From an uncultured virus (IMG/VR IMGVR_UViG_3300025133_005019) (lineage: Duplodnaviria > Heunggongvirae > Uroviricota > Caudoviricetes), in the IMG/VR virus record IMGVR_UViG_3300025133_005019: 57,478 nucleotides of DNA; one strand, 5' to 3'. Made by a program: the position numbers and the translations under genes. Position 1 is the stretch's first letter; the number at the start of each line of letters is the position of its first letter. The notes below the pieces were generated by a model that saw only the letters and a program-made list of their open reading frames with translations, was not told the DNA's origin and ran no database searches. Of the stretch, positions 9,576 through 35,654 are shown one piece after another.

Positions 9576-9604
9576 ACTATACAGTAAGACGTATTGGTTG
9601 TCAA
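9576..9604 (-). promoter_or_regulatory. Boxed sigma70 promoter
   Basis: TTGACA-17-TATAGT; spacer cagtaagacgtattggt; -35 overlaps the IOR stop codon. Confidence 0.8.
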
Positions 9605-12600
9605 CCCCAAGTTTGTTTTATTAATTCATCAATTTCACTTAATTCACTAACTACCTGATCATATTCAGCATTAGATAAGTTTGCATTATATTTCATTATT
9701 TTTGCTATTGTATTATCTCGCAATTCTTTTTCTTGCTGACGTGATTTTGACATCATTAACGGATCAAATGCAGTATCACGTAGCACCTTGCCGTGTTGTA
9801 ACAATTTAAATATATTAATTATCCACCAGCCTGATACTTTTGACTTTTTCTTGTTCTTTCGATTCCATGGCATATTTAAATACAAATAAACATTTGCTAG
9901 ATCTGCCATCGTATCAGTTTTATGCGTATTATAATAGTCTACCCATAATCTAGCAACTTCATATTCATCTTTATATGCCATTACGTTAAATAAGTTATGC
10001 ATTACTACATCTGAATATTCGGTCCTATTCAAAGATTTATCTATTAGGATTGCCTCTTGAACCAATTTCTTATACTCATCTGCATATTTGACAGATTTAT
10101 ACTTCTTTAATATTTCATATCTATATAAGAACGGATCATCAGTATGTTGCTTTTCACTAATATGATAATCTATTTCACTTCTTAGTTCGTCTATTGCATA
10201 TGCACGACCACAGTGCCATGCATATTGATTATCATCCACTGCTGCACCATTAATTTCAATTGCTTTTAACATACTTTCTTCAGTAATAGGCAGCCATCCC
10301 ATTTGATATGCATAACCATACATAAATGATGTTCCTGTTATCGACGATCCCAATAACTTATTGACAATTTTCTTGACTGGGATAGGAGCTAATGTGCGCG
10401 AGTTAGACTTTGCAATATCGAGACTCAATGTATCATCAAATTTCCAATCACGATTTGTAATTAGTTCTGACGATGAACTTGAATTGGTATTAAAAACAAT
10501 ATTTGTATGGTCACCCATTAATTGTACACTTGTTGTATTAGTAACAACTTGTGGATCAATGCCTATAATTAAATTAGCAGTGCCTTTATATATTTGACCC
10601 ATTGCATGTTCGCCTATGCTGATTTCACTTGTCACAGCACCGTATTTCTGTGCCAATCCAGTTGAATCAATTGCACTAACTTTATGTCCGTCTAATGAAG
10701 CTGCTACTGCTAACATCTGACTAGAGCTAACAATACCAGTTCCACCAATGCCACTTAATAGAACATTATATCTCTTGAAATTTGTATCTAGTTCTGGTTT
10801 AGGGATATCAAATGACAACCGATCTTTAAGATCATACTGTTCAACATAACCATCAACTGTCATAAATGATGGACAAAATCCTTTCAAGCAAGATAAATCT
10901 ATATTACAATTATCGTAATCTATAGTTCTTTTTGTTCCAAGCGGAGTATCTAGTGATACTATACTTAGGCAAGTAGACTTAGTGCTACAATCACCGCACC
11001 CTACGCATATTTCTGGATTAATAAATGGCTTAGTGTCTATACCTTCTTGCAAACCTCGTTTTATTTTTCGGCGTCTTTCTGTGGCACATTGCTTTTCGTG
11101 AATAATTACAGAAACACCTTTTTTATGTTTAAATTCTTCTTGTACTTCCATTAATGAATCCAGTGGTTCGGTACGAATTGCATGTGTAAACTTATCAGAC
11201 ACAATGCAGACATCATTGATGTCAATACCTTCAGCTAACACTTGATTCACTACCATATCAACTGTCAACTTACCGTCAACAGGTTGGCCGCCAGTCATTG
11301 CCACTGCATCATTGTACAATATTTTATATGTCATATTGGCGCCAACGGCAACGGCTTGTCTAATTGCTAATAATCCTGAATGGAAATAAGTACCATCACC
11401 CAAGTTAACAAATACATGTTCCGCTGAATCATATAAATGTTGCCCGCACCACATTGATCCTTCTCCGCCCATTGGAGAAAGAGATACATGATCTCTATCT
11501 TGCATTCCTCGTACCATAATATGGCAACCAACACCAGCTAGTCCAACTGAACCTTCAGGTAGCTTTGTACCAACATTATGAGGACAACCTGAACAGAAGT
11601 GAGGGACACGGCCTTCACTAGTTATGTTTGATGCTACAGGAATTTTTACTGCTTTACGTAATACAGTTTCATTAAACACTTCTGTTATTTTTACTGCATC
11701 AAAATCTAATTCTTGTGGGAAATGGGATTTGCCTACTAACGGGGTAGTAATCCCCATATCATATAATTTTGCCTTTAATTGATCTTCTACAAACCCTCGT
11801 TTTTCTTCAATAACAATAATCTTATCTCTATCTTTCGCGAAATCTATTAAGTCTTGGGTAATAGGATAAGACATGCCTACTTTCATAATATCAATGCCGT
11901 ATGCTTCTATGTCAATGCCATTAACATTTATTGCATTAATTAGATCAACATAATTTTTGCCAACTGCATAAACTGCAATCTTACCTTTTTTAGATTTATG
12001 GGTGACTTCATTGAATGGATTAAGTTTAACAAATTCTTCTATTGCTGGAAATTTTTGTTGGATCATTCGTGCTTCTTGAGAATCACCGTCATCTGGCCAT
12101 CTAACTGAAACATCAAACTCTTTTTCTGGAATAGTAGGAGCCCATGCATCTAAATTTACATCGACTGACTGATAAGCATCTGCAATATTACTTACTATCT
12201 TTACTGAACACCAAAGGCCACTGTAACGTGATAATGCTACAGCGTTAATACCTAAACGTAATATATCCTCTACACCAGACGGTGTGATGCTTGGAATACT
12301 CCAACTGGCTAATGTTGAGCAAGTTTCATGTGGCAATGCTGAACTTTTTTTAGGATGATCATCACCAGCAAACATAACAACACCACCTGTAGCAGAGGTG
12401 CCAAATAAATTACAATGTCGTAACTGGTCACCTGCTCTATCTACACCAGGCCCCTTGGCGTACCAAAATGCAAATGTTCCATCATATAACTTATCACCAA
12501 CTAGTCCAGCGTTTTGCGTACCTTGTACCATTCCCGCAGCAAGATCTTCGTTAACTCCAGGTATGAATGTTATACCAGCAGCATCTGTTATGTGTTTCTG

Positions 12601-12786
12601 TTTAACAAATTCAACATCAACGCCGCCCAATGGACTGCCTCTATAACCAGAAACAAACCCGGCGGTATTAAGACCGTTGCGTTTATCTAGTTCTTTCTGC
12701 AACAACGCAAGTTTTAGTATTGACTGTGAGCCAGACATAACGAATACACCATCATTCGATAAATATCTATTCTCTAATTCGCCCAT
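9601..12786 (-). CDS. ior: Indolepyruvate:ferredoxin oxidoreductase family protein, fused alpha/beta
   Basis: SGYRGSPLGG, NEDLAA, KGPGVDR, FCSGCPHN, TPP motif GDGTYFHSG, CVGCGDC/CLKGFCPSF, GIGGTG, GLAQK, YKDEYEVARL. Confidence 0.93.
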   Translation of the reverse strand: MGELENRYLSNDGVFVMSGSQSILKLALLQKELDKRNGLNTAGFVSGYRGSPLGGVDVEFVKQKHITDAAGITFIPGVNEDLAAGMVQGTQNAGLVGDKLYDGTFAFWYAKGPGVDRAGDQLRHCNLFGTSATGGVVMFAGDDHPKKSSALPHETCSTLASWSIPSITPSGVEDILRLGINAVALSRYSGLWCSVKIVSNIADAYQSVDVNLDAWAPTIPEKEFDVSVRWPDDGDSQEARMIQQKFPAIEEFVKLNPFNEVTHKSKKGKIAVYAVGKNYVDLINAINVNGIDIEAYGIDIMKVGMSYPITQDLIDFAKDRDKIIVIEEKRGFVEDQLKAKLYDMGITTPLVGKSHFPQELDFDAVKITEVFNETVLRKAVKIPVASNITSEGRVPHFCSGCPHNVGTKLPEGSVGLAGVGCHIMVRGMQDRDHVSLSPMGGEGSMWCGQHLYDSAEHVFVNLGDGTYFHSGLLAIRQAVAVGANMTYKILYNDAVAMTGGQPVDGKLTVDMVVNQVLAEGIDINDVCIVSDKFTHAIRTEPLDSLMEVQEEFKHKKGVSVIIHEKQCATERRRKIKRGLQEGIDTKPFINPEICVGCGDCSTKSTCLSIVSLDTPLGTKRTIDYDNCNIDLSCLKGFCPSFMTVDGYVEQYDLKDRLSFDIPKPELDTNFKRYNVLLSGIGGTGIVSSSQMLAVAASLDGHKVSAIDSTGLAQKYGAVTSEISIGEHAMGQIYKGTANLIIGIDPQVVTNTTSVQLMGDHTNIVFNTNSSSSSELITNRDWKFDDTLSLDIAKSNSRTLAPIPVKKIVNKLLGSSITGTSFMYGYAYQMGWLPITEESMLKAIEINGAAVDDNQYAWHCGRAYAIDELRSEIDYHISEKQHTDDPFLYRYEILKKYKSVKYADEYKKLVQEAILIDKSLNRTEYSDVVMHNLFNVMAYKDEYEVARLWVDYYNTHKTDTMADLANVYLYLNMPWNRKNKKKSKVSGWWIINIFKLLQHGKVLRDTAFDPLMMSKSRQQEKELRDNTIAKIMKYNANLSNAEYDQVVSELSEIDELIKQTWG

Positions 12787-12803
12787 GTATTTTCTCCTAC
12801 ATT

Positions 12804-13220
12804 TTATGGTGCCGCGTCCCTTTCATCCCACGGTCCCATTTCATAACAAGGCTGGGGCATTATATCTTTATATATGATAAGAACTTCAGTTCCGGTTGCT
12901 GTGGTTTTTGAAGTTATTGTTTCGACCCCTTGTTCCCTTGGCTTACCAAAACATCTATTGTTGCTTTGGCCTGGATATCTATAACGCGGATTGTGCGCTA
13001 GAAAATCAATTAATTCTTTAAGATGTTCTTCTTCTGTTTTTATAATATATGAATCATGACATGATGCTGGTATATTAAAGTCAAAAGTGTTAAAATGTTC
13101 CTTTGTATAGTTACTCTTTAATAAACACATCTTTAAAATATTATTGGATTCAGATGCATCAGCCGCTGGTAAAAAGCCAAGCGTGGTTAAAATAACTAAC
13201 ATCATTACTACATCCCGCAT
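12804..13220 (-). CDS. Hypothetical exported protein
   Basis: Signal-peptide-like N-terminus; 4 Cys. Confidence 0.65.
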   Translation of the reverse strand: MRDVVMMLVILTTLGFLPAADASESNNILKMCLLKSNYTKEHFNTFDFNIPASCHDSYIIKTEEEHLKELIDFLAHNPRYRYPGQSNNRCFGKPREQGVETITSKTTATGTEVLIIYKDIMPQPCYEMGPWDERDAAP

Positions 13221-13224
13221 AATT

Positions 13225-13725
13225 TTATGTCTCTACTTTATTTACTGTGATTCCAGACTTGTGCAAGAAATCCGTGCCAGCTGTACTGCGATAATCATGT
13301 TTATAGTATACATTGGTTATACCACTTTGATAAATTAATTTAGCACAGTTTATACATGGCGAGTGTGTACAAAATAATGTAGCATCCTTTCCACTTTCAT
13401 GGCTACCTGCAAGTTTAGTTAGTGCATTAGCTTCTGCATGCAATACTTCTGGTTTAGTTACAAGTCGATAGCGATTACCTTTCTCATCTTGATATGGCCA
13501 TTGATCCTCAACTGTTGAGGTATTTAACCAACATCCTGCATCATTGTCCATATACTCTCTATGTTCGCAATCATTGTCCCAACCCATTGGCATGCCATTA
13601 TAGCCAATACTAATAATACGATTATCCTTAATAACGATGCTGCCTACTTTTAGTCGTTCAGCATATGATAGTTCTGCAAATCGCTCAGCTACATCCATAA
13701 ATGCGTGTATATATTTTTCTTTCAT
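13225..13725 (-). CDS. cd: dCMP deaminase
   Basis: IGYNG, LHAEANA, HSPCINC. Confidence 0.93.
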   Translation of the reverse strand: MKEKYIHAFMDVAERFAELSYAERLKVGSIVIKDNRIISIGYNGMPMGWDNDCEHREYMDNDAGCWLNTSTVEDQWPYQDEKGNRYRLVTKPEVLHAEANALTKLAGSHESGKDATLFCTHSPCINCAKLIYQSGITNVYYKHDYRSTAGTDFLHKSGITVNKVET

Positions 13726-14078
13726 TTTAGGCTCTTGACTTTTCTAGGCGTATATCGACTGGTCCGTTTACAATGTCAGCAGCAATTGCCTTAGCATCAT
13801 CTACCATTTTTAAAACCTCTTGAACCGTTTCTCTTGGTAAATCCCCAAATGTTGCCTGAAACGTGAAGTCATAGTTTTTATCGTATTCGATATCCACATC
13901 AAGCCTCTGAATTATATATTCAATCTGAGGATTGGACTTCTGAAGTTGATATCTCAAGCGATGAATTTCAGTGGTCTTCTCAAGCAAAACCTTTGCCTTT
14001 TTATGCAGCTCGTCTATACTATGATACATCTTCATGATCTCCCTTATCCATAAATGCGTGTATATATTTTTCTTTCAT
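13693..14078. repeat. 33-bp perfect direct repeat (13693-13725 and 14046-14078)
   Basis: atccataaatgcgtgtatatatttttctttcat at both positions. Confidence 0.92.
13727..14035 (-). CDS. Hypothetical protein between the 33-bp repeats
   Basis: 102 aa ORF with AAGGGAG RBS. Confidence 0.7.
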   Translation of the reverse strand: MKMYHSIDELHKKAKVLLEKTTEIHRLRYQLQKSNPQIEYIIQRLDVDIEYDKNYDFTFQATFGDLPRETVQEVLKMVDDAKAIAADIVNGPVDIRLEKSRA

Positions 14079-14524
14079 ATTAGATTTTGATTACTTGGTG
14101 TTAGGTGGTCGCCATTCTCGATGGTCTTAATATTATGGCAATTGTGACATAATGTCTGTAAATTGGATGGATCATTGTTTTCATGATTACCATCAATATG
14201 GTCCACGCTTAATGAACTACGTACCATTGAATTAAATAATTTTGGGTCACTTTTTTTGTATTTGTTAACCCTAGGCAGTTTAGCAGGTTGAAAATTACAT
14301 TCTTCACAATAGTCTAATCGATGTTGACTGTATACTTTTTCTGCCGTTGCTAATCCACCAAACTGTTTAAAGTTGCGTTGGTGTTCATCACAATAGTCCT
14401 TCTCACCTGGCCCCTTCCATAATGTAAGATGCTTATCACATCCAGGAACCTTGCACTTATTTGATAATGCTATACGCATTTCATTTGTGCTTTTGCGTTG
14501 ACGGTCTGTAGCTTCGCGGATCAT
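14075..14524 (-). CDS. HNH endonuclease
   Basis: CEEC...SVDHIDGNHENNDPSNLQTLCHNCHNIKT. Confidence 0.88.
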   Translation of the reverse strand: MIREATDRQRKSTNEMRIALSNKCKVPGCDKHLTLWKGPGEKDYCDEHQRNFKQFGGLATAEKVYSQHRLDYCEECNFQPAKLPRVNKYKKSDPKLFNSMVRSSLSVDHIDGNHENNDPSNLQTLCHNCHNIKTIENGDHLTPSNQNLI

Positions 14525-15711: not shown

Positions 15712-15716
15712 AATTA

Positions 15717-16136: not shown

Positions 16137-16140
16137 AATA

Positions 16141-16497: not shown

Positions 16498-16555
16498 GTT
16501 GTTTGCTCCTAAATCTCAGTTCGTACATAAATTATAACACACGGAAATAACTATG

Positions 16556-16630
16556 TCAAATAAATCCTATCCAATGCGTAACATCATCACATGGGTCATC
16601 AACACGACTCCAGCCATTTTCGTTTTGCAT
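16556..16630 (-). CDS. 24-aa peptide
   Basis: MQNENGWSRVDDPCDDVTHWIGFI*; AAGGTG RBS; directly after a boxed promoter. Confidence 0.5.
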   Translation of the reverse strand: MQNENGWSRVDDPCDDVTHWIGFI

Positions 16631-16661
16631 AATGTCACCTTTTTGTTTAACTTATACTTAT

Positions 16662-16690
16662 ATATTACAGCAAGCCGTATTGGTTGTCAA
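16662..16690 (-). promoter_or_regulatory. Boxed sigma70 promoter
   Basis: TTGACA-17-TAATAT; spacer cagcaagccgtattggt. Confidence 0.75.
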
Positions 16691-16747
16691 GAAAAAGCCA
16701 AAGAATAAAATCCTTGGCCTTCAAGTAGTTATAAATTATTTTTAAAA

Positions 16748-17806: not shown

Positions 17807-17870
17807 CGTAAGCTCCTGGTCGTTTGGTATATAAAATCGATGTATATCCTTATTTATATTAAATGCTTAT

Positions 17871-19262
17871 TTAATATTTCATATTTTCATCGATTTTATA
17901 GTTACGGGTACCATTATTTGCGACAAGATTGAATAATGTAGCCACCCCAAAGCCAGTAGCACCGTAAGGAACAATTTCAGTACCTGATTCACTCCATGCC
18001 ATACCAGCAATATCTAAGTGCGCCCAACTACGACCCTCATCAACAAATCGATATAAAAACTCTGCGGCTGTGGTTGAGCCACCATATGGTCCACCAATAT
18101 TTTGCATATCAGCAATCTTAGAATCAATCATCTTATTCCAGTTTTTGCCCATTGGCATCCGCCAAAATTCTTCACCTAGCTTTGATCCATCTGCTTGAAT
18201 GGTTTCGCTTAATTCACTAGAGTTAGTAAATAGTCCTGCCATTTCATGACCAAGCGATACTAGTATAGCACCAGTTAAAGTAGCTACGTCAATAATTACA
18301 TGCGGGTCGTAGGTTTGCACATATGTTAAAATATCAGCTAACACTAGTCGGCCTTCTGCATCTGTATTAAGATTTTCAACCGTTTGTCCACTCATTGATG
18401 TAACAATATCACCAGGCTTAATAGCTTTACCATCAGGCATGTTTTCAACTAATCCAACAATCCCAACCACATTGTGGTTTACTTTGTTGCTGCCAATAGC
18501 ATGCATTGCTCCAACTACTGCGGCACTCCCGCCCATATCAAACTTCATATCCGCCATGCCTTTGCCTGGCTTTAGTGAAATACCACCAGAATCAAATGTA
18601 ACACCTTTACCTACTAAAGCAATGGGTTTGGCATCTGCATCAGGATCATTCATGTATTCCATCACAACAACAAAGCTATCTTTTTCACTACCTTGTCCTA
18701 CACTTAGAAGCAAATCAAAACCCAGGGTTTCTAATTGTGATTGGTGTAAAATTTTAACAGTTACACCTACTGCATTTAATGCTGACTCGATTCGATATGC
18801 ATAGTTTTGCGGGAATAGTTTATTGCCGGGTTCAGAAACAAGAGTGCGAGCTAGCTCTATGCTTTCACTTAGTAGATTATTTTTTAATCCATGAATAGCT
18901 AATTGTGTTGATTTTTTATCTGTCTTATATTTGTTAAATTCATAGTTTGCAAGCCGAGCACCATCAGCTAGATGTTCATTTCCTAGTTCAAAATAGATAT
19001 TGTCTACATCTTTGCGTTTACGATATTCTTTAACAAGCTGCCCGCCAAGTTTTAACCATTCATTTGGCGTATCCTCACTCATTATAATAACACGTACAAA
19101 ATCGATATCAGCGCCAGGGTATTGCACTTCGACATCTTTTGTTTTTTTAATATAATTGCGATTACAAACTTCGTCTAACTTCTTCTTTAGAGATTTGTTT
19201 AATTTTTTATATGCGGCGCTGTTATGTTCAACAATTACAACACTTTTGCTGTTATAATCCAT
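17871..19262 (-). CDS. pepA: M17 leucyl aminopeptidase
   Basis: VGKGVTFDSGG, MKFDMGG, NTDAEGRL, ATLTGA, HLDIAG. Confidence 0.95.
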   Translation of the reverse strand: MDYNSKSVVIVEHNSAAYKKLNKSLKKKLDEVCNRNYIKKTKDVEVQYPGADIDFVRVIIMSEDTPNEWLKLGGQLVKEYRKRKDVDNIYFELGNEHLADGARLANYEFNKYKTDKKSTQLAIHGLKNNLLSESIELARTLVSEPGNKLFPQNYAYRIESALNAVGVTVKILHQSQLETLGFDLLLSVGQGSEKDSFVVVMEYMNDPDADAKPIALVGKGVTFDSGGISLKPGKGMADMKFDMGGSAAVVGAMHAIGSNKVNHNVVGIVGLVENMPDGKAIKPGDIVTSMSGQTVENLNTDAEGRLVLADILTYVQTYDPHVIIDVATLTGAILVSLGHEMAGLFTNSSELSETIQADGSKLGEEFWRMPMGKNWNKMIDSKIADMQNIGGPYGGSTTAAEFLYRFVDEGRSWAHLDIAGMAWSESGTEIVPYGATGFGVATLFNLVANNGTRNYKIDENMKY

Positions 19263-19488
19263 AATTGTATCCTTTGTTTTTAATTTCAGTTGGGTCAATA
19301 GTAAATTCCAAACCAGCCATTTTAGCAACAAACAGGTTCTTTTTTTCTTTATGGAAATGCAAAACTACATCCTGCATGTTAACACGTATAACATCTTGTC
19401 GTTGGTCTACAATGATACCGTCGATTTTCTTGCCATTGTCAGTACAGGTTACTGTAATTTCTTGCATATCCGAGATATAATATCCCAT
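19252..19488 (-). CDS. Small hypothetical protein
   Basis: GGAG RBS; overlaps pepA start. Confidence 0.65.
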   Translation of the reverse strand: MGYYISDMQEITVTCTDNGKKIDGIIVDQRQDVIRVNMQDVVLHFHKEKKNLFVAKMAGLEFTIDPTEIKNKGYNYGL

Positions 19489-19512: not shown

Positions 19513-19541
19513 AAAAAAGCGAAGCCTGTTATAGGCTCCGC
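19513..19541 (-). terminator. Rho-independent terminator after sbmA
   Basis: GCGGAGCCT-ATAAC-AGGCTTCGC-TTTTTT on the minus strand. Confidence 0.85.
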
Positions 19542-19548
19542 AGTAGGG

Positions 19549-20586
19549 TTATGCTTTCGCTTCTTCTTCCGCTGCATCTAGCACACGGTTAAATTCACGC
19601 AAACGTTTAATGACTGATTGGAAGTCAACAATCGTTGTCCATCGATCAATAAAGTAAGTTAATGCGCCTTCGACTCTACCAAATGCATTTAGTACCTGAA
19701 TAAGTACACCAAATGTAATTAGCTGTGCGAAATAACTAGGTGCAAGTACAATAAGAGCCACGTTACCTGCAATTAGACTAAAGCCAGTTTGCCATACACC
19801 AAAGCCCATATACCAGTTAAACAAGCGGTAATAGTTGCGCTTAACACTCGCAAACATTGGGAATAGATCTGCGCTAACACGTTCACTAAAGTCATCTTCA
19901 CTGTGAACAAGTTTTTTACGAAACTTAGCTTCAACAACCTGGTTACGGTATTCCAATCCAGGAAGTTTCATACCTAGTAGGAATGATAGTGCGGTGCCGC
20001 CTAAGCTCATTGTTAGTGCTACCCAAACTAAGAAGCCTGGAATAATTTGGCCATTCCATACTGGTAAGCCTTCACTTAGTTGCCATAATACTGGTAAAAA
20101 TGCACTTAAAATAAAGATTTTGTTAACAAATCCCGTAAACAATGATTGCAATGTTTTACCGAAAATCATCAAATCTTCTTGAATACGTTGTGATCCACCT
20201 TCAATAACAGCGGTAGATTCTTCCCATCGCATTAGATAGTGATGCGTATTCGCTTCTCTCCAGCGGAATGTGTACCGTTGAGTTTGCCAAGTAGCATAGG
20301 TTGCCATTGGTACATATATAATTAATATTTCTAGAAAACTTGGTACTGTGGTTTTTTCATCCATATTAAACGAAATAAAATCAATCATCCGTAATGAATC
20401 AAAACTCCAAAACAATTGCCAAAACCTATCTTCTTGAAGGGTTTGGATTGCATCGTAGAACTCTCGGTTCCATGAGTTATAGTAAACCAAAATTTGAACA
20501 TTGTACCAACCTATGAACAGTAGCCAAGCCAGCATTAGCCAGGCGTACGGAGCATTCTTTGACGTCCAAAAGAAACTTTTAAGCAT
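19549..20586 (-). CDS. sbmA: SbmA/BacA-like peptide transporter
   Basis: WNREFYDAIQ, FRWRE, IEGGSQRIQED, LPGLEYRNQVVEAKFRKKLV; multiple TMs. Confidence 0.9.
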   Translation of the reverse strand: MLKSFFWTSKNAPYAWLMLAWLLFIGWYNVQILVYYNSWNREFYDAIQTLQEDRFWQLFWSFDSLRMIDFISFNMDEKTTVPSFLEILIIYVPMATYATWQTQRYTFRWREANTHHYLMRWEESTAVIEGGSQRIQEDLMIFGKTLQSLFTGFVNKIFILSAFLPVLWQLSEGLPVWNGQIIPGFLVWVALTMSLGGTALSFLLGMKLPGLEYRNQVVEAKFRKKLVHSEDDFSERVSADLFPMFASVKRNYYRLFNWYMGFGVWQTGFSLIAGNVALIVLAPSYFAQLITFGVLIQVLNAFGRVEGALTYFIDRWTTIVDFQSVIKRLREFNRVLDAAEEEAKA

Positions 20587-20604: not shown

Positions 20605-21474
20605 TTACTTTAAACCAGCGTCAGGCGCACTGCCGCTGAAGCCCCAGAAATTCCTATAGTTTGTTGCAAGTTCAATTAAGCCTTTGCGTAAAGGAAAGTC
20701 ATTTGGTTTCAGCCAATACATTGACGAATTTGGTATCTTAATAAACAGAAGTCTCAAGTCTGGACTTTCAACACCTAATGATTGTAATAATTGCATCAAG
20801 TTCGCAGCGGTTCTAAAACTACTAGATTCTAACTGCCTTCTGTTTAAATTATTAATAGCACCTTCTGGTGTGCCAGGGCCATGTATGCCAAGCCACACGT
20901 CACCAATAAGGTACCGTTGGTCACCACCTAAAAACATAAGACTACATGCACTAGCACACATTGTTTTGCCAGCCATATAGTTATCATCTTCTGGGATAGT
21001 TCCTGGGGTATAAATTATTTCCCCGTTTTCATTCATTACAGTCGTATCTCGTACAACTGTAACAACATCTCGTAATTTTAAATGAGCTGCTAAACAGCTT
21101 CCTTCAGCTAGGTTTCCGCCTGGTGATTCAAGTATCACAGTAAATGCCTGTGGCATGTCTGGTATAATACGTTCGCAATCTCCGTCGCCTACACTACCTG
21201 TCAAAGTATAAAGGTTATCACCAATTAATTTAAATTCTAAATGATCGTTTGGGTCATCAGCTTCGTCTGCTGCTTTTTCATCATTTAAATCATGATACAT
21301 AACCATGAAATCATCGTAATACATATGGCCTTGATTAACTACTAGTACAGTACACAGTATTGTTAACCCGCCCAAAAATGTATTTTGGAATAATTTATTA
21401 ATAGCCCGATAAACAAAAGTTTCTTTTGACTTTTGCACTAATACCTTGACTATGTTTTTCAGAAAATTTAACAT
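20605..21474 (-). CDS. Membrane-anchored ClpP/crotonase-fold protease-like protein
   Basis: N-terminal TM; LESPGG, CASACSLMFLGG, LGIHG. Confidence 0.7.
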   Translation of the reverse strand: MLNFLKNIVKVLVQKSKETFVYRAINKLFQNTFLGGLTILCTVLVVNQGHMYYDDFMVMYHDLNDEKAADEADDPNDHLEFKLIGDNLYTLTGSVGDGDCERIIPDMPQAFTVILESPGGNLAEGSCLAAHLKLRDVVTVVRDTTVMNENGEIIYTPGTIPEDDNYMAGKTMCASACSLMFLGGDQRYLIGDVWLGIHGPGTPEGAINNLNRRQLESSSFRTAANLMQLLQSLGVESPDLRLLFIKIPNSSMYWLKPNDFPLRKGLIELATNYRNFWGFSGSAPDAGLK

Positions 21475-21544: not shown

Positions 21545-21853
21545 TTATTTTTCTTCTGTATCTGATTGCTCAGATTCTGAATCAGTTTGCTCAGCTTCAT
21601 TTGCTTGTTGCTGTCTAGCAGCCATCGCCGCAGCAAAATCAGTTTCAGTCATACATTGTGCTTGCTTAATTAATGTATATTCAGTACTGATTGGAAATTG
21701 ACCCTGTACCTTTTCAACATATTGATGACATATCTCCATATTGGGATATGGTACAAATTGAAATACTGGATTTCCTAATTGAAATTGGAAAACACTTACA
21801 ATAAAATGTCCTACAATTAATATTGCGCCTACTGTGCCTGTTGCTGGTTCCAT
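21545..21853 (-). CDS. Small exported/membrane protein
   Basis: Hydrophobic N-terminus, two Cys, acidic tail. Confidence 0.65.
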   Translation of the reverse strand: MEPATGTVGAILIVGHFIVSVFQFQLGNPVFQFVPYPNMEICHQYVEKVQGQFPISTEYTLIKQAQCMTETDFAAAMAARQQQANEAEQTDSESEQSDTEEK

Positions 21854-25187: not shown

Positions 25188-25847
25188 TTAGTATGTAGTG
25201 ATGATCTTGTCAGCCACACCATGCTTTAACACTTCTTCAGGCGTTAACCAAACGTCCTCAGCAGGAAGAAGATGCTGACGAATGTATTTCTCGTTTTTAC
25301 CAGTACACTTCTTATAGTGCTCAACCATGTTATGTGATGTCTGTTCAAATGATTTCATACGAGCATAAAGATCAAATTCTTTACCACCACTACCTGCACT
25401 ATATACATGACTCATAACACTAGTATTCTGTGTCACGTAGCGATGACCTTTCTCGCCCGCCATTAATAGTAAGCAACCACATGATGCAGCCATACCCATA
25501 GCATATGTGTACACTGGAATGCGGCTCTGCTTAATAGTATCAATCAAATGCCAGGCACTGGCAACCATACCACCAGGGCTGTTGATATACAGATGAATAA
25601 TCTCGGGTTTCTTATCATCAGGCATCAAGTTATATTCTAAAATCATCTTAACCAATGGCATGCAGTTCTCTTGATTAAACTCTTTATCCATAAACAGCAC
25701 ACCATTATCACGCAAATATTCACCTGGCATTTTTGGCGGCGCAGGTGGCGCTGGCATTGGCGGCATTGGTGGTGCATCTGGGACCTGTCTTGGTACTGGT
25801 ATTACTGTTGGGTTTTGCTTTTTTGGTTCTGTCTTTTTCTTAGCCAC
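25188..25847 (-). CDS. clpP: ClpP protease subunit with Pro-rich N-terminus
   Basis: LYINSPGG, MAASCG, MSH, EDVWL. Confidence 0.9.
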   Translation of the reverse strand: MAKKKTEPKKQNPTVIPVPRQVPDAPPMPPMPAPPAPPKMPGEYLRDNGVLFMDKEFNQENCMPLVKMILEYNLMPDDKKPEIIHLYINSPGGMVASAWHLIDTIKQSRIPVYTYAMGMAASCGCLLLMAGEKGHRYVTQNTSVMSHVYSAGSGGKEFDLYARMKSFEQTSHNMVEHYKKCTGKNEKYIRQHLLPAEDVWLTPEEVLKHGVADKIITTY

Positions 25848-25876
25848 AATAAATTTCCTTTTATTAGTTTTTTAAC

Positions 25877-27743: not shown

Positions 27744-27804
27744 TTAATTTTCCTTTAGATTACAATCAGTTTAACATATCGACAATGGTATGTCAAATGC
27801 TATT

Positions 27805-28146
27805 TTATAGCCCGCAACTTTTTATAGATGCGTTACTTGGGCACCCGCCACATTCGTCTGACTGTGGATTCGATACTTCTAACGTAGACCCAAATTCGTC
27901 TTTTTCGATGGTTATAGTTGCGCCATATAGATACATAAAGCTTACATCATCTATTACTAACTTACAGCCATTCTCTAGATCAATAACTTCATCACCTGGG
28001 ACCAAATTATCTGGGTCGGCAAAATACCATCCATATTGATATCCAGAACAGCCTGCACCTATAATTGCTAACCGTGGATATTGATTGTCATTTTCTTGAC
28101 TTGATTTTAATAAATGCTCTTTCGCTTCTTGTGCAACATTAATCAT
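27805..28146 (-). CDS. HesB/IscA-family Fe-S carrier
   Basis: GAGCSGYQY, IDDVSFMYLYG, NPQSDECGGC. Confidence 0.88.
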   Translation of the reverse strand: MINVAQEAKEHLLKSSQENDNQYPRLAIIGAGCSGYQYGWYFADPDNLVPGDEVIDLENGCKLVIDDVSFMYLYGATITIEKDEFGSTLEVSNPQSDECGGCPSNASIKSCGL

Positions 28147-28158
28147 ATATTTTATCTC

Positions 28159-28872
28159 CTAGTGATAACAGACCATTGGTCTAATTTTACAATACCAGTC
28201 TGGCATGTCTGATGGGTTAACAGTATGAAAGAATACTTCTTCAAGCTCTTGCCACCCTTGCCATAAGAAGTAAATTCCTAAAAATATCATTGCAAATTTA
28301 CTAATAGTAAAGAATAATTTGACTGGTATTTGCAACATTACTCGTTTAAGTATAATATATAGAATAAATAATGCAACTAACGCCACCACGCCACCTGTTA
28401 TAATAACATCTGATTGTTCAATATCACTTAGGAATAATGCATTGTAAAACAATACAATTTCAAATCCCTCGCGTAAAATGGCAAACATTACCGTTGCTGA
28501 TAAAGCCAATGCAGTACCAGTTGATACATTCTGTTCAATACCATGTTTAATATGCTGTTCAGGTCCGTGACACCACCACGCTACATAAAATAGCATTAAT
28601 GCAGCAATAATCATGGTAATACCTTCGAACAGTTCTTCATGCTCATGCGTGGCTTCTGCTATTACGCTAAATCCAGTAGCTACTAGTATACTCAACAAGA
28701 TTCCAGAAAACACACCATACCAGACATATCTATTTTTATCACGCACATTAAGAATTTCCAGATATGAAAAAACTAACATAACAATTAGCATTGCTTCTAA
28801 TCCTTCGCGGAATATAATAAAAAATGAGCCTATAAAGGCCAGTACTTCTGCATTTGTTAAAAGATCAGTCAT
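28159..28872 (-). CDS. FTR1-family iron permease
   Basis: Two REGxE motifs, REGLE and REGFE; multiple TMs. Confidence 0.9.
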   Translation of the reverse strand: MTDLLTNAEVLAFIGSFFIIFREGLEAMLIVMLVFSYLEILNVRDKNRYVWYGVFSGILLSILVATGFSVIAEATHEHEELFEGITMIIAALMLFYVAWWCHGPEQHIKHGIEQNVSTGTALALSATVMFAILREGFEIVLFYNALFLSDIEQSDVIITGGVVALVALFILYIILKRVMLQIPVKLFFTISKFAMIFLGIYFLWQGWQELEEVFFHTVNPSDMPDWYCKIRPMVCYH

Positions 28873-29146
28873 TTGTTTTCTCCATATTAATTTTCACTAC
28901 AACGGGGTCTAAGATGGTCCCAATGTCTTTTGATTGTAACATATCCCTTAGTTTAAAAGAGAATTGTAATAGTTCATCATGGGTTTTGAATTTGTCTAAG
29001 AATTGTATATTCTCACCACGCCTGAGCATTTTAATATAATCTATAAAACCTGAATCAACCCATTGATAAGGTGAATAAAGTCCCATTGTAAAATATTCCA
29101 GTGAACTAATTTTTTCGTCATTTGTCATTTTATTAATCACCATCAC
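28865..29146 (-). CDS. Hypothetical protein
   Basis: Operon-packed ORF. Confidence 0.5.
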
Positions 29147-29483
29147 CAGGTCTTTCGTCTAGTAACTTGATTTTATTACCACCAGCATATCCTAACACTG
29201 GATTCATTTTATCTGAATCTGGCAGCGGATCTTTCCGTGCTGTGATTACTGGCCAAAGTCTACTATATTTGTCATTAAAGTCGACCCATGACGCCCCTTC
29301 TTTAGTTGTGTCAGGTAAAATAGCACCTGTCGGGCATTCAGGCTCGCAAACACCACAATCAATACATTCATTTGGACGAATTACTAATGTATTTGCTCCT
29401 TCATAAAAGCAGTCTACTGGACAAACTTCTACACAATCGGTATATTTGCATTTAATGCATGCATCATTAACTATATATGTCAT
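29133..29483 (-). CDS. fdxA: FdxA-type dicluster ferredoxin
   Basis: [21 protein letters not shown]...[12 protein letters not shown]. Confidence 0.95.
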
Positions 29484-32298: not shown

Positions 32299-32327
32299 AT
32301 TATAAGGTAAGACGTATTGAATGTCAA
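32299..32327 (-). promoter_or_regulatory. Boxed sigma70 promoter
   Basis: TTGACA-17-TATAAT; spacer aggtaagacgtattgaa. Confidence 0.8.
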
Positions 32328-33046
32328 GTATTGGAATACTTATTTTTTAATATGTTTGCGGTATGTACGTGACTTTTTACATGATGTACCTTGCCACGTT
32401 TGTTAATTTGAATACTATGTGCAATACTAAAATCATTGCCGTTGATGTCACAGCGATCACCGAAAAATATCAACTCGTCGTAATCATCAAAATCTTTTAA
32501 TATTTGTGATTTATCACAGCCAACTGGAAATATATCAAGCCCCGTTTCACCACCAACAGATGATATAATACCGTGATGTTTATATAATGAATTAAATTGT
32601 TCTGCTATGTTCTCACGCTCGCAATGTTTACGATCCCACAGCACATATTGTTGCCTTTCAACTAGTGATATTCCTCGTCCAGGAATACTAAAATTTAACA
32701 TGCCTGGACGAATTTCAAAATGCTCGCCATTTTTGTTTTTAAATTTGCTTTGATTTAGCTCATGGCGTAGAAAGTTCATTGGAGCAGACGGCAACTCCCA
32801 TGTATTACTATATACATTATTATCTTTTTCCCATACGTCATTGCCACTACAATTATAAACACGTTGGCAGCTATTGTAAATAACTTCACCAATTTGTTCA
32901 ATTGTTTTTGGTCGATCACTGCCTGTTACTAGATATACATCGTTTGCATTACAAAACGCCTTAAACCAAACAGCAAACTTTTTATCCATTGATTGTCTGC
33001 TTGGTGTTAAGGTTCCGTCTACATCAAATATATATGCAGTTGCCAT
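32324..33046 (-). CDS. HAD-IIB hydrolase, phosphomannomutase-like
   Basis: FDVDGTLT, VTGSD, MLNFS, FFGD...GND. Confidence 0.88.
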   Translation of the reverse strand: MATAYIFDVDGTLTPSRQSMDKKFAVWFKAFCNANDVYLVTGSDRPKTIEQIGEVIYNSCQRVYNCSGNDVWEKDNNVYSNTWELPSAPMNFLRHELNQSKFKNKNGEHFEIRPGMLNFSIPGRGISLVERQQYVLWDRKHCERENIAEQFNSLYKHHGIISSVGGETGLDIFPVGCDKSQILKDFDDYDELIFFGDRCDINGNDFSIAHSIQINKRGKVHHVKSHVHTANILKNKYSNT

Positions 33047-34609: not shown

Positions 34610-34640
34610 AATCTTGGTCTCGTGGTTAACTTATACTTAT

Positions 34641-34669
34641 ATGATACAGTAAGACGTATTGGTTGTCAA
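34641..34669 (-). promoter_or_regulatory. Boxed sigma70 promoter
   Basis: TTGACA-17-TATCAT; spacer cagtaagacgtattggt. Confidence 0.85.
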
Positions 34670-34682
34670 CCTTTTTTTAGAT

Positions 34683-35654
34683 TTATTTTAACCTATCATT
34701 TGCTATTTGTTCTGCGGCATGCTGTATTGGCATTCCTTCATCTGATGCTATATTAAATATGCTATCTATTCGTACAGTTAGTTCGTGCGTTAATGCATCC
34801 TTATAATCTTTTTTCTCAAAATCTAATGCGGCGGCGACCACACCACCACAGTTAGCAACGAAATCTGGAACATACTTGATGCCCATATTGTGTGCCGTGA
34901 TAATATCGTTACGAGTGCCAAATACGTTATTTGCACTACCACATACATATTTTGATTTGATTAATTGGAGTGATGATTCATTTAGCGCACCACCTAATGC
35001 ACAAGGAACATAAAATTCGCCTTGTAGCAATGCAGTTTCTTCTATATGAGTAACACCTTCTAAACTATCGACAAATGGATCATAAGCTTCTATTTTACCA
35101 TCTAGCATTTTGATTAAATGTTTGCCAACTTTGCCAAGTCCCTGTACTGCAAATGTCTGATCTTTTATTTCTAGTCCATCTTGCTTGAGCAATGTTTTAA
35201 TACTAGTATGTACTCCTAATGCTGTTGGTAGACTAGTATCTAATGTTATGCCTGTCACATATGATGTTGTATCATTCACTCTATATAGATCGTCAACTCC
35301 TGTACCGACATCACCAGCACATATATATGCGCCGTCGTGAAGATTTACGGCTTTACCAAGCATTTGATATGCTAAGTCTCTGTCTTTAATTTTGAGTGCA
35401 TTTATAGTAGTTTTGGCGCCACCATGATTTAATCCTGATGCCGCATTTTTGAATGTCATGCCTTCACTAAGGCGTAATGCGTCTGTTAGTTGTGATTCGA
35501 AAGTTTCATAGTTATAACATCTAATTCCGCCAATGGCTGGTCCTAATTTTGTGCTATGTATAGCAATTATTGCATCCAAGCCCGACTCAAGATGTTCAAC
35601 ATGTAATACTCTTTCGTATCCATCAATAGACATTTCGGTTCGTTTAATTAACAT
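34683..35654 (-). CDS. Glu/Leu/Phe/Val amino-acid dehydrogenase
   Basis: IAIHSTKLGPAIGGIR, LSEGMTFKNA, GGAK, QGLGKVG, PCALG, GSANN, PDFVANCGG. Confidence 0.93.
   Translation of the reverse strand: MLIKRTEMSIDGYERVLHVEHLESGLDAIIAIHSTKLGPAIGGIRCYNYETFESQLTDALRLSEGMTFKNAASGLNHGGAKTTINALKIKDRDLAYQMLGKAVNLHDGAYICAGDVGTGVDDLYRVNDTTSYVTGITLDTSLPTALGVHTSIKTLLKQDGLEIKDQTFAVQGLGKVGKHLIKMLDGKIEAYDPFVDSLEGVTHIEETALLQGEFYVPCALGGALNESSLQLIKSKYVCGSANNVFGTRNDIITAHNMGIKYVPDFVANCGGVVAAALDFEKKDYKDALTHELTVRIDSIFNIASDEGMPIQHAAEQIANDRLK

What the first reader, a model, noticed from the sequence alone, without database searches (positions are those of the whole stretch)
9601..35654. Apparent phage-encoded peptide-to-energy pathway: protease, SbmA importer, aminopeptidase, amino-acid dehydrogenase, 2-oxoacid:ferredoxin oxidoreductase, ferredoxin
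Seen: motif-intact genes for a membrane-anchored ClpP/crotonase-fold protease-like protein (20605-21474), SbmA/BacA (19549-20586), M17 aminopeptidase (17871-19262), Leu/Phe/Val dehydrogenase (34683-35654), fused IOR (9601-12786) and FdxA (29133-29483), all interspersed with phage core genes. Known: these activities are consecutive steps, from peptide import to amino acid, 2-oxoacid plus NADH and NH3, then acyl-CoA plus reduced ferredoxin. Inference: the phage installs a route to harvest peptides or host proteins (it also has ClpP) for energy, reductant and nitrogen. I do not know of this full chain being described in a phage.
Basis: partly seen in the sequence, partly recalled or inferred. Interest (0 to 1): 0.9.

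Follow-up and report, generated by a model that had tools for sequence, protein, structure and literature searches.

The report
Jumbo phage peptide-to-ferredoxin gene set
A giant marine phage carries intact genes for a peptide importer with its own protease, an aminopeptidase, a leucine-type dehydrogenase, a ferredoxin-linked 2-oxoacid oxidoreductase and a ferredoxin; on paper these turn peptides into reducing power, but they are inherited as separate modules rather than as one pathway.

Summary
All six genes are present and look intact. Five pass curated HMMs. The sixth (20605-21474) has no family hit, but it folds as ClpP and its family keeps an invariant Ser/His pair. The genes belong to the phage. 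Phage-specific promoters abut IOR and the dehydrogenase, and contigs from three independent marine studies bridge them to phage core genes.

The single-pathway reading is only partly supported.

For it:
- In cellular contigs an ELFV dehydrogenase lies directly after the fused IOR in 5 of 55 loci.
- A second, distant phage contig carries IOR plus a non-orthologous dehydrogenase.
- A 92%-complete relative has five of the six genes.

Against it:
- That relative lacks IOR.
- FdxA is lineage core, present in 12 of 23 PolB-chosen relatives, none of which has IOR.
- The genes lie in separate variable islands and transcription units.
- No gene in the window turns acyl-CoA into ATP.

Best reading: several modules. 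These are a periplasmic peptidase with an SbmA-like importer, M17, a dehydrogenase with IOR, and FdxA with an Fe-S carrier. They probably supply amino acids, ammonium and low-potential electrons rather than energy. Phage IORs form their own clade, and my literature searches found no description of them.

The parts
9601..12786 (-). Fused IOR-family 2-oxoacid:ferredoxin oxidoreductase (1061 aa), a member of a phage-specific clade
   Evidence: NF009589 scores 1020.6 bits against cut-off 816. Pfam finds POR, TPP_enzyme_C and DUF6537. The TPP motif and Cys clusters are invariant. A viral clade of 19 rows has support 100.
9576..9604 (-). Phage early-type sigma-70-like promoter, a 29-mer family, overlapping the last bases of the IOR gene
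   Evidence: One mismatch to the 29-mer found at 34641 and 41508; sequence read.
16531..16690 (-). Two tandem TTGACA-N17-TATAAT/TAATAT promoters after a hairpin-plus-T-run; probable start of the unit that runs down to IOR
17871..19262 (-). M17 leucyl aminopeptidase (PepA-like), cytosolic
   Evidence: NF002077 scores 505.7 bits against cut-off 471; Peptidase_M17 E 5e-118 plus the N-terminal domain. ATG start read.
19252..19488 (-). Small ORF (78 aa) with its own ribosome-binding site, between the terminator and M17
   Evidence: no family hit.
19519..19541 (-). Intrinsic-terminator-like hairpin (9 pairs, 6 G-C) plus T-run, directly after the SbmA stop codon
   Evidence: A 2,534-nt contig from an RNA library ends at 19543; this is a weak hint only.
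19549..20586 (-). Short-form SbmA/BacA-like inner-membrane transporter (345 aa)
   Evidence: PF05992 scores 260.8 bits. 77% and 81% identical in G006 and G029. All 120 listed metagenome clusters are 57-99% identical.
20605..21474 (-). Membrane-anchored ClpP-fold Ser/His peptidase-like protein. It has an N-terminal transmembrane helix. I infer that the catalytic domain faces the periplasm.
   Evidence: The N-terminus before the hydrophobic stretch is Lys/Arg-rich, the linker after it is acidic, and four cysteines are invariant (read).
21545..21853 (-). Small single-pass membrane protein that keeps its place beside the protease and SbmA
   Evidence: 42% identical in G006 and 58% in G029, in the same position; sequence.
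25188..25847 (-). ClpP homologue with an intact Ser/His/Asp triad; a core gene of the lineage
   Evidence: CLP_protease scores 114 bits. Alignment to 3q7h. 53-64% identical in six relatives and 89% in G029.
27805..28146 (-). ErpA/IscA-like Fe-S cluster carrier; lineage core
   Evidence: Fe-S_biosyn scores 35.5 bits against cut-off 26.3. The ErpA model scores 63 bits, below its cut-off of 117. Present in 6 relatives plus G029.
28159..29146 (-). FTR1/EfeU-like iron permease plus a 93-aa ORF, inserted between the Fe-S carrier and FdxA. None of the 11 compared relatives has it.
   Evidence: FTR1 scores 77.8 bits. No homologue in the other ten records (G001 is the window's own phage) or in G029.
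29133..29483 (-). FdxA-type 7Fe ferredoxin; lineage core
   Evidence: NF045490 scores 148.1 bits against cut-off 135. Present in 13 of 28 and 2 of 5 related records.
34683..35654 (-). Short (323 aa) leucine-dehydrogenase-like ELFV amino-acid dehydrogenase, probably NAD-dependent
   Evidence: All 120 listed metagenome clusters are 54-100% identical, on contigs up to 369 kb.
34641..34669 (-). Phage 29-mer promoter directly after the dehydrogenase stop codon, identical to the copy after PolB at 41508-41536

Best explanation
The window is part of a marine jumbo myovirus of roughly 350 kb. Its replication genes are T4-like and it is distant kin of the Phosso, Atu_ph07 and RaK2 phages. Its variable islands carry real, phage-adapted auxiliary genes for handling peptides and amino acids. 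I read them as at least four separately inherited modules, not one operon-like pathway.

1. A three-gene membrane cassette: a small membrane protein, a ClpP-fold Ser/His peptidase, and an SbmA/BacA-like proton-driven importer. I infer that the peptidase domain faces the periplasm, where it cuts envelope or external polypeptides, and that the importer takes up the products.
2. A cytosolic M17 leucyl aminopeptidase that releases N-terminal amino acids, leucine above all.
3. A leucine-dehydrogenase-like enzyme that converts branched-chain or similar amino acids to 2-oxoacids plus NADH and ammonium. It is coupled in this phage to a fused IOR-family oxidoreductase, which would convert the 2-oxoacid and CoA to acyl-CoA, CO2 and reduced ferredoxin.
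4. The lineage-core FdxA ferredoxin and ErpA-like Fe-S carrier, joined here by an FTR1-like iron permease.

I think the pay-off is free amino acids, ammonium, NADH and low-potential electrons for the phage's many Fe-S and radical-SAM enzymes, not ATP.

Shown: gene identities, fold, conserved residues, phage residence and distribution. Inferred: topology, substrates, reaction direction, electron partners and physiological pay-off.
For: - Identities and intact motifs.
- Phage residence: GC is 0.32-0.385 throughout. The same 29-mer promoter follows IOR, the dehydrogenase and PolB. In DNA runs from three studies, contigs cover all 30 bins and bridge IOR to dCMP deaminase and HNH, and M17 to the clamp loader.
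- Modularity: in the 11-record matrix the core block (ExbB-like, clamp loader, ClpP, MazG, ErpA-like, FdxA, QueD, PolB) is syntenic, while the auxiliary genes sit in islands at 6.1-22.4 kb, 28.2-29.1 kb and 32.3-40.7 kb.
- Cassette 1: the order small protein, protease, SbmA is kept in G001, G006 and G029. SbmA is 77-81% identical where PolB is 55-69%.
- Couple 3: an ELFV dehydrogenase lies directly downstream of fused IOR in 5 of 55 cellular loci, 3 with a divergent Lrp/AsnC regulator. G019 carries viral-clade IOR plus a dehydrogenase only 30% identical to the window's and closer to the IOR-linked cellular ones.
- FdxA does not depend on IOR: 12 of 23 PolB-chosen relatives have FdxA and none has IOR.
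- Fe-S demand: three radical-SAM plus PP-loop gene pairs lie in the window. One radical-SAM protein is 74-81% identical across relatives.
- G029, G002, G006 and G020 encode an FNR-type flavoprotein. In G029 it lies one small ORF upstream of the dehydrogenase. That points to ferredoxin reduction as a theme of the lineage.
Against: - The chain was picked after the fact from a window with more than 20 other annotated auxiliary genes.
- G029 was chosen because it has the dehydrogenase. It shares 37 of 91 window proteins. On that background, finding four of the other five genes has a chance of about 0.09 (my arithmetic).
- IOR is missing from the only near-complete relative.
- No FdxA lies near IOR in 80 cellular loci.
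- No SbmA lies near distant cellular relatives of the protease in 51 loci.
- The known substrates of SbmA/BacA are specialised peptides and antibiotics, not nutritional peptides (established knowledge, recalled).
- The protease has no conserved third catalytic residue, and its activity and topology are untested.
- Both the dehydrogenase and the oxidoreductase catalyse reversible reactions.
Confidence: 0.45

Rival explanations
1. One reading: one integrated, selected route that harvests peptides or host proteins and carries them through all six steps to yield energy, reductant and nitrogen.
For: The six activities are consecutive on paper. Protease, SbmA and M17 are consecutive genes. IOR with a dehydrogenase is a cellular cassette. 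Five of the six recur in G029.
Against: IOR is absent from the 92%-complete G029. FdxA is core and independent of IOR. A terminator separates SbmA from M17, and promoters split the stretch into several units. The window has no acyl-CoA-to-ATP enzyme. The genes lie in three different variable islands.
Confidence: 0.15
2. Unconnected auxiliary genes, each serving a different need. FdxA, ErpA-like, FTR1 and IOR would support phage Fe-S and radical-SAM enzymes. M17 and ClpP would handle general protein turnover. The dehydrogenase would serve nitrogen or redox balance. The SbmA-protease cassette would import a specific peptide, cofactor or signal, or exclude superinfection.
For: The distribution is patchy and largely independent in 33 records. 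The lineage encodes FdxA, an Fe-S carrier and often an FNR-type reductase without IOR. M17 moves about and sits beside FdxA in G004, G008 and G027. SbmA-like and dehydrogenase clades are each abundant on their own in marine metagenomes.
Against: The cellular IOR-dehydrogenase cassette and the second phage with both genes argue for at least that link. The gene order protease, SbmA, M17 in this phage is suggestive.
Confidence: 0.27
3. The biosynthetic direction: IOR carboxylates acyl-CoA reductively with reduced ferredoxin, and the dehydrogenase aminates the 2-oxoacid, making branched-chain or aromatic amino acids for virion proteins.
For: Both enzyme classes are reversible, which is established biochemistry; the review PMC13768988 (passages seen) treats carboxylation by the related pyruvate enzymes. 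The lineage has ferredoxin-reducing equipment, FNR-type proteins.
Against: The cellular cassette sits beside an Lrp/AsnC regulator. In one Acinetobacter contig IOR lies beside leucine-catabolic genes. Both point to catabolism. An importer and an aminopeptidase supply amino acids, which makes synthesis redundant.
Confidence: 0.07
4. Artefact: host genes joined to phage DNA by misassembly.
For: The metabolic genes have mostly cellular homologues.
Against: GC and strand are uniform. Phage promoters abut the genes. Contigs from three independent studies bridge the junctions. IOR belongs to a viral clade found on other IMG/VR contigs beside phage genes.
Confidence: 0.01

Closest known systems
Peptide fermentation of Thermococcales (peptides to amino acids to 2-oxoacids, then IOR/VOR/POR/KGOR to acyl-CoA, then ADP-forming acyl-CoA synthetase); recalled, with the 1994 Mai and Adams IOR paper seen only as a reference in PMC13768988
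   Same: The same order of steps, with ferredoxin as the electron acceptor of the 2-oxoacid step.
   Different: It is cellular, not viral. It uses aminotransferases plus glutamate dehydrogenase rather than a Leu-type dehydrogenase. Its IOR has two subunits. It ends in an ATP-yielding acyl-CoA synthetase, which is absent here.
Cellular Lrp/AsnC, fused IOR, ELFV dehydrogenase cassette in proteobacterial metagenome contigs (found here: L103, L124, L164, plus IOR-dehydrogenase alone in L133 and L167)
   Same: The same two enzyme families, with IOR of the fused NF009589 type.
   Different: In cells the two genes are adjacent and regulated. In the phage they lie 22 kb apart in different units. The phage IOR belongs to a separate viral clade and is about 60-130 aa shorter. 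The phage dehydrogenase is only 32-36% identical to the cassette ones.
SbmA/BacA peptide transporters (E. coli SbmA, Sinorhizobium BacA)
   Same: The Pfam SbmA_BacA domain is matched over nearly its full length (positions 8-314 of 315).
   Different: It is a short form lacking about the first 85 residues of the E. coli-type model (aligned to positions 88-401 of 413), and it scores below both NCBIfam equivalog cut-offs. It is paired with a ClpP-fold protease, a pairing not seen in 51 cellular loci.
ClpP, SppA and NfeD self-compartmentalising and membrane serine peptidases (ClpP/crotonase fold)
   Same: The fold, the SPGG turn, and a Ser and a His spaced 23 residues apart. A spacing of about 25 in ClpP is recalled.
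   Different: No Pfam membership. It has a single-pass anchor, four invariant cysteines and no conserved Asp. The family is small: 90 representatives at E up to 1e-3 among 1.84 billion.
Phage auxiliary metabolic genes for electron carriers, such as cyanophage ferredoxins (recalled)
   Same: A phage-encoded ferredoxin expressed to redirect host electron flow.
   Different: This is a 7Fe FdxA type rather than a plant-type 2Fe-2S ferredoxin. It comes with an Fe-S carrier, an iron permease and, in this phage, its own candidate ferredoxin-reducing enzyme.

Membership tests
Fused IOR-family 2-oxoacid:ferredoxin oxidoreductase (NCBIfam NF009589) | Whole-protein score above the curated cut-off | tested here: met
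   1020.6 bits against 816.
Fused IOR-family 2-oxoacid:ferredoxin oxidoreductase (NCBIfam NF009589) | Thiamine-diphosphate binding motif and Fe-S cysteine clusters | tested here: met
   GDG at 463-465 followed by N492, and Cys at 398/401/421, 594/597/600/606 and 627/633/638, are invariant in A1. Assigning them to cofactors is an inference; no solved relative was found.
Fused IOR-family 2-oxoacid:ferredoxin oxidoreductase (NCBIfam NF009589) | Activity on indolepyruvate, arylpyruvate or branched-chain 2-oxoacids with ferredoxin | not testable with these tools
   Needs an enzyme assay.
M17 leucyl aminopeptidase | Catalytic and N-terminal domains, with an equivalog score above the cut-off | tested here: met
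   NF002077 scores 505.7 bits against 471; PF00883 E 5e-118; PF02789 present.
SbmA/BacA transporter | SbmA_BacA domain over its full length | tested here: met
   260.8 bits, profile positions 8-314 of 315.
SbmA/BacA transporter | Equivalog of E. coli SbmA (NF008306) or of the short PRK12369 family | tested here: not met
   236.2 bits against 492, and 289.6 bits against 385. It is a divergent short form.
SbmA/BacA transporter | Peptide uptake | not testable with these tools
   Needs a transport or sensitivity assay.
ClpP-fold serine peptidase (for 20605-21474) | ClpP/crotonase fold | tested here: met
   pLDDT 88.5. Every Foldseek row printed is ClpP, E 6.7e-7 and upwards. A profile search of solved structures lists only ClpP among the 60 shown of 90 matches, best E 6.6e-4.
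ClpP-fold serine peptidase (for 20605-21474) | Catalytic Ser and His conserved | tested here: met
   S175 and H198 are invariant in 42 sequences.
ClpP-fold serine peptidase (for 20605-21474) | Membership of Pfam CLP_protease | tested here: not met
   The protein itself has no hit; 1 of 42 family members hits at 1.2e-5.
ClpP-fold serine peptidase (for 20605-21474) | Third catalytic residue (Asp) as in ClpP | tested here: not met
   No invariant Asp in A2 or A3.
Leucine/phenylalanine/valine-type ELFV dehydrogenase | Both ELFV domains and the catalytic lysines | tested here: met
   PF02812 and PF00208. Alignment to LeuDH 8hpe keeps K in FKNA, K in GGAK and D in AGDVGT.
Leucine/phenylalanine/valine-type ELFV dehydrogenase | Substrate specificity | tested here: inconclusive
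   Solved leucine dehydrogenases score best (188 bits), ahead of tryptophan (147) and phenylalanine (110) dehydrogenases. One residue that I recall as lining the pocket is Ala where leucine dehydrogenases have Val. The protein is about 40 aa shorter than those enzymes.
FdxA 7Fe ferredoxin | Equivalog score above the cut-off | tested here: met
   148.1 bits against 135.
Single co-inherited pathway (operon-like auxiliary gene set) | The genes travel together across related genomes | tested here: not met
   Only the window's own phage has all six. G029 has five and lacks IOR. Among 23 PolB-chosen relatives: IOR 0, dehydrogenase 0, protease 1, SbmA 3, M17 6, FdxA 12. All but one record are fragments.

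The most novel reading that the evidence does not exclude
An abundant lineage of marine jumbo phages runs its own amino-acid-fuelled supply of low-potential electrons. A periplasmic ClpP-fold peptidase and an SbmA-like importer bring in peptides. M17 frees leucine-type residues. A phage dehydrogenase and a phage-specific clade of fused IOR oxidise these and charge the phage FdxA, with an FNR-type reductase doing that job in relatives that lack IOR. The reduced ferredoxin then drives the phage's radical-SAM and Fe-S enzymes, independently of the host's failing central metabolism.
Probability: 0.2. Interest if true: 0.85.

Novelty: new variant of a known kind. Interest (0 to 1): 0.62.

Why it matters
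Phage auxiliary metabolic genes are well known, but mostly from photosynthesis, nucleotide and sulfur or phosphate metabolism. This window shows three things I could not find described. The paper searches were made; I saw only listings and the starts of abstracts, and supplements were not consulted.

- A clade of fused IOR-type 2-oxoacid:ferredoxin oxidoreductases that has diversified inside phages.
- A short leucine-dehydrogenase-like enzyme. All 120 listed metagenome clusters are 54-100% identical, and they sit on contigs of jumbo-phage size.
- A conserved cassette that pairs an SbmA-like importer with a ClpP-fold peptidase I infer to be periplasmic.

If even the two-enzyme couple works as proposed, phages would reroute amino-acid carbon and nitrogen and make their own reduced ferredoxin during infection. 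That bears on how marine viral infection alters dissolved organic nitrogen and on how phages power oxygen-sensitive radical chemistry. Each step is directly testable by cloning the gene.

Tried and rejected
- Chimeric contig: rejected.
- A single-protein scan of viral contigs for IOR found nothing. An alignment was needed, and it gave 9 loci.
- The metagenome scan with the IOR alignment kept 80 loci, all 34-42% identical, which I take to be cellular; it returned no large phage contigs.
- Sequence and profile searches of solved structures with IOR found nothing. The protease protein alone also found nothing.
- Does FdxA lie beside IOR in cells? No, in 0 of 80 loci.
- Does SbmA lie beside distant cellular relatives of the protease? 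No, in 0 of 51 loci. The pairing looks phage-specific.
- Is an FNR-type gene next to the dehydrogenase as a general rule? No, only in G029 and G030, which look like the same phage (a 274-residue protein is 100% identical).
- Complex prediction on SbmA plus the protease gave no verdict, scores 0.00 and 0.00. This is not evidence either way.
- The RNA library X16 had no contig over IOR (9601-13578) and covered 23 of 30 bins. The absence is not evidence, and DNA carry-over cannot be excluded for the covered parts.
- tblastn against 50,697 GenBank phage records gave no record above 50% identity for any of the four genes. Counts: IOR 5 records, dehydrogenase 5, SbmA 4, M17 12. I inspected only the best IOR hit, 'Acinetobacter phage MD-2021a', whose surroundings are bacterial catabolic genes. 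I did not inspect the weaker hits.
- Lenient Pfam scans of 16 unknown neighbours gave nothing usable.
- The window's own assembly and the earlier-findings store were unavailable.
- My recollection that GapMind lists fused branched-chain and phenylpyruvate ferredoxin oxidoreductases could not be confirmed in the library. It stays a recollection.

Full report
WHAT THE WINDOW IS

The 57.5-kb window has an even GC content of 0.32-0.385 and no tRNA genes. From 6.2 kb onward almost every gene is on the minus strand. PHROGs and Pfam identify T4-type replication genes: PolB (phrog_262, E 1.6e-194), clamp loader (phrog_168), dCMP deaminase, dNMP kinase, MazG and a DsbA-like regulator. The nearest isolated phages by PolB are jumbo phages:
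- Sinorhizobium phage Phosso, 50.8% identity
- Agrobacterium phage Atu_ph07, 46.8%
- RaK2-like phages, about 44%

The window's own assembly is not held. A 61.8-kb IMG/VR record, G001, which CheckV rates 17% complete, matches 11,874 bases of the window at 100% identity. PolB relatives at 58-80% identity are very common in IMG/VR: at least 599 stretches matched and 80 loci were kept.

Five of the six genes pass curated models:
- Fused IOR: NF009589 scores 1020.6 bits against a cut-off of 816.
- M17 leucyl aminopeptidase: 505.7 against 471.
- SbmA_BacA: Pfam scores 260.8 bits, but the protein is below both NCBIfam equivalog cut-offs.
- FdxA: 148.1 against 135.
- The dehydrogenase: both ELFV domains are present.

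The IOR keeps its GDG...N motif and three cysteine clusters. These are invariant across 14 related proteins.

The dehydrogenase aligns best with solved leucine dehydrogenases (E 2.4e-54). The two lysines, the Asp of AGDVGT, the GLGKVG motif and the acidic residue that suggests NAD use are all in place. It is about 40 residues shorter than those enzymes.

- An exhaustive search found a small family: 90 representatives at E up to 1e-3, 21 of them at 1e-10 or better.
- Across 42 members, S117-P-G-G, C173-A-S175-A-C177, R187 and H198 are invariant or nearly so.
- The model has pLDDT 88.5, and every Foldseek row printed is ClpP.
- A family profile matches only ClpP among the solved structures listed.

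The protein starts with a Lys/Arg-rich stretch. A hydrophobic helix follows, then an acidic linker. Four cysteines are invariant in the closer family. From these features I infer an N-in anchor with the peptidase domain in the periplasm. This is an inference, not a test.

The separate ClpP at 25188-25847 is a true ClpP homologue with its triad aligned.

THE GENES BELONG TO THE PHAGE

Strict sigma-70-type promoters occur 11 times, all on the minus strand, against 1.36 expected by chance. One phage-specific 29-mer version sits at the very end of the IOR gene (9576-9604). The same version sits directly after the dehydrogenase (34641-34669) and after PolB (41508-41536).

The stretch 9601-19600 is held by marine DNA runs from 13 studies. 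Twelve rows hold half of its sampled words or more. In three runs from three studies, contigs cover all 30 bins of 9601-29483. They bridge IOR to dCMP deaminase and HNH (X8 record 17) and M17 to the clamp loader (X8 record 20; X5 record 13). Misassembly is therefore excluded.

HOW THE GENES ARE DISTRIBUTED

I searched 28 related IMG/VR records. Twenty-three were chosen by PolB, three because they carry IOR, and one because it carries the dehydrogenase; the last is G001 itself.

| Gene | Records with it, of 28 | Among the 23 chosen by PolB |
|---|---|---|
| IOR | 4 | 0 |
| SbmA | 4 | 3 |
| M17 | 7 | 6 |
| Dehydrogenase | 3 | 0 |
| Protease | 2 | 1 |
| FdxA | 13 | 12 |

All of these records are fragments, 1-56% complete, so an absence is weak evidence.

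A protein-by-protein matrix against 11 fetched records shows a syntenic core. It comprises an unknown protein, an ExbB-like protein, the clamp loader, ClpP, MazG, the ErpA-like carrier, FdxA, QueD, a cell-wall hydrolase and PolB. FdxA, ClpP and the Fe-S carrier are therefore lineage core, and the rest are accessory.

A scan with a dehydrogenase alignment then found G029: 342 kb, 92% complete, PolB 58% identical. G029 carries:
- the dehydrogenase, 59% identical;
- the cassette of small membrane protein, protease (53%) and SbmA (81%), in the same order;
- M17 (57%) and FdxA (63%);
- but no IOR.

G029 shares 37 of 91 window proteins. It was selected for the dehydrogenase. On that background, finding four of the other five has a chance of about 0.09 by my arithmetic. 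That is suggestive, not significant.

WHICH LINKS IN THE CHAIN HAVE INDEPENDENT SUPPORT

IOR and the dehydrogenase.
- I fetched 80 IOR loci from metagenomes, all 34-42% identical and so presumably cellular. Of the 55 with at least 1,300 bases downstream, 5 have an ELFV dehydrogenase starting within about 250 bases after IOR on the same strand.
- Three of those five have a divergent Lrp/AsnC regulator upstream. This looks like an amino-acid-responsive catabolic cassette.
- In one Acinetobacter contig, filed in GenBank as a phage, the fused IOR sits beside genes annotated as isovaleryl-CoA dehydrogenase, acetyl-CoA carboxylase and enoyl-CoA hydratase.
- A second phage contig, G019, carries IOR and a dehydrogenase 72 kb apart. 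It is 111 kb long, its PolB contains an intein, and structural genes lie nearby.
- The G019 dehydrogenase is 30% identical to the window's and closer to the cassette type, at 33-38%. The two phages therefore recruited different dehydrogenases alongside IOR.

Protease and SbmA.
- They are adjacent, with the same small membrane protein, in G001, G006 and G029.
- SbmA is better conserved (77-81%) than PolB (55-69%).
- The pairing was not seen in 51 cellular loci that hold distant relatives of the protease.

M17.
- In this phage it follows SbmA, but it lies behind a strong terminator-like hairpin (19541-19519) and a small ORF.
- Elsewhere it sits beside FdxA (G004, G008, G027) or a HIT-like gene (G029).

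IOR IN PHAGES

Phage IORs form one clade of 19 rows with support 100, set against 33 cellular rows. The clade holds the window's protein, 13 metagenome proteins, five IMG/VR proteins (L012-L014, L016, L019), and these are 36-49% identical to the window's. The window and L019 sit on long branches. Two IMG/VR contigs, L017 and L020, fall among the cellular rows (FastTree, SH-like support).

The contigs that carry clade members also carry homologues of the window's dNMP kinase, a radical-SAM protein and other phage genes. So IOR has a history inside phages and is not a recent capture.

The short dehydrogenase and the SbmA-like protein are both abundant in marine metagenomes. All 120 clusters listed for each are 54-100% identical and almost all are unnamed. 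They sit on contigs up to 369 kb and 280 kb respectively.

WHAT IT MOST LIKELY DOES

The steps from peptide to amino acid to 2-oxoacid to acyl-CoA plus reduced ferredoxin follow from established knowledge of the families. Substrates, direction, topology and the electron partner are inferences.

I doubt the 'energy' part, because nothing in the window converts acyl-CoA to ATP. A pay-off in amino acids, ammonium, NADH and low-potential electrons fits the surroundings better:
- The window holds three radical-SAM plus PP-loop gene pairs. One radical-SAM protein is 74-81% identical across relatives.
- It also holds an Fe-S carrier and a unique FTR1-type iron permease beside FdxA.
- Relatives encode an FNR-type flavoprotein (G002, G006, G020, G029). 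In G029 it lies one small ORF upstream of the dehydrogenase.

The rival readings remain open: unconnected auxiliary genes, the fully integrated pathway, and the reverse, biosynthetic direction.

EXPRESSION

One DNase-treated metatranscriptome library holds contigs over 23 of the 30 bins. One of them is a 2,534-nt contig covering SbmA, the protease and the small membrane protein. It ends at 19543, right at the predicted terminator. Contigs cannot prove transcription, transcript ends or co-transcription, so this is only a hint.

LITERATURE

Eight full-text searches found no paper describing a phage-encoded IOR, leucine dehydrogenase or SbmA as auxiliary genes. I saw listings and the starts of abstracts only. 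I read passages of one review, PMC13768988. Supplementary tables of viral auxiliary-gene surveys were not consulted and could list these families.

VERDICT

This is a new variant of a known kind, phage auxiliary metabolism. Its novel parts are a viral IOR clade, an abundant short dehydrogenase, and an importer-peptidase cassette.

Noticed in passing
window 205-2206 (+), 4355-6177 (+), 38199-39860 (-): Three pairs of a radical-SAM protein with a PP-loop (QueC/TilS-like) ATPase. The radical-SAM protein at 4355-5530 is the best conserved protein in the lineage, 74-81% in six relatives and 67% in G029. Their function is unknown; nucleotide or DNA modification is possible, since a QueD-like gene lies at 29480-29986.
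   Followed up: partly
window 38199-38543 and 38512-39225 (-): A radical-SAM core ORF and a SPASM-domain ORF overlap by 32 bases in different frames. This could be one gene split by a frameshift, whether real, programmed or a sequencing error.
   Followed up: no
window 17574-23542: In two independent DNA runs (X5 depth 16.4, X8 depth 14.6), contigs join 17574 to 23542 with only 14-15 other letters between. A co-occurring relative may therefore lack the roughly 6-kb block holding M17, SbmA, the protease and the ExbB-like gene. The reads were laid at 90% likeness, so another phage could be the source.
   Followed up: no
window 13692-14046: One X8 contig skips 353 bases, removing the small ORF 13727-14035 between dCMP deaminase and the HNH gene. 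This is a strain-level indel.
   Followed up: no
window 28159-29146 (-): An FTR1/EfeU-like iron permease and a 93-aa ORF are inserted between the Fe-S carrier and FdxA. They are absent from all 11 compared relatives.
   Followed up: partly
window 22376-23541 (-): A small MotA/ExbB-like protein (150 aa) and an unknown 237-aa protein form a conserved pair next to the clamp loader in six relatives. In G029 the pair sits beside the ErpA-like gene.
   Followed up: partly
window 40726-41253 and 27330-27743 (-): A SpoT-like HD hydrolase domain (TIGR00691, 91.6 bits) and MazG. Both are candidates for lowering (p)ppGpp during infection.
   Followed up: no
window 32324-33046, 35686-37189 (-): A phosphomannomutase-like HAD protein, KdsB and KdsA (Kdo synthesis) lie next to the dehydrogenase. 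KdsA (68%) and KdsB (45%) recur in G020, which also carries the dehydrogenase.
   Followed up: partly
window 9576-9604, 16662-16690, 34641-34669, 41508-41536 and similar: A family of near-identical 29-base sigma-70-like promoters with a conserved spacer (CAATACGTCTT). Related copies recur in G001.
   Followed up: partly
L305:4925-5749 (G029): An FNR-type flavoprotein (FAD_binding_6 plus NAD_binding_1), separated from the G029 dehydrogenase by one small ORF. Homologues occur in G002 (59%), G006 (54%) and G020 (40%). None is present in the window or in G001.
   Followed up: partly
L011 (CAKLQF020000001.1): The GenBank record named 'Acinetobacter phage MD-2021a' is annotated, over the 43 kb inspected, with bacterial catabolic genes and regulators. 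It looks like a bacterial contig filed as a phage.
   Followed up: partly
L019:7194-9113 (G019): The PolB of this distant IOR-bearing phage is split and carries an intein-splicing domain.
   Followed up: no
window 26583-27089 (-): A 168-aa protein matches only a short piece of the DNA polymerase III alpha NTPase domain (phrog_11127). It is conserved in the lineage core.
   Followed up: no
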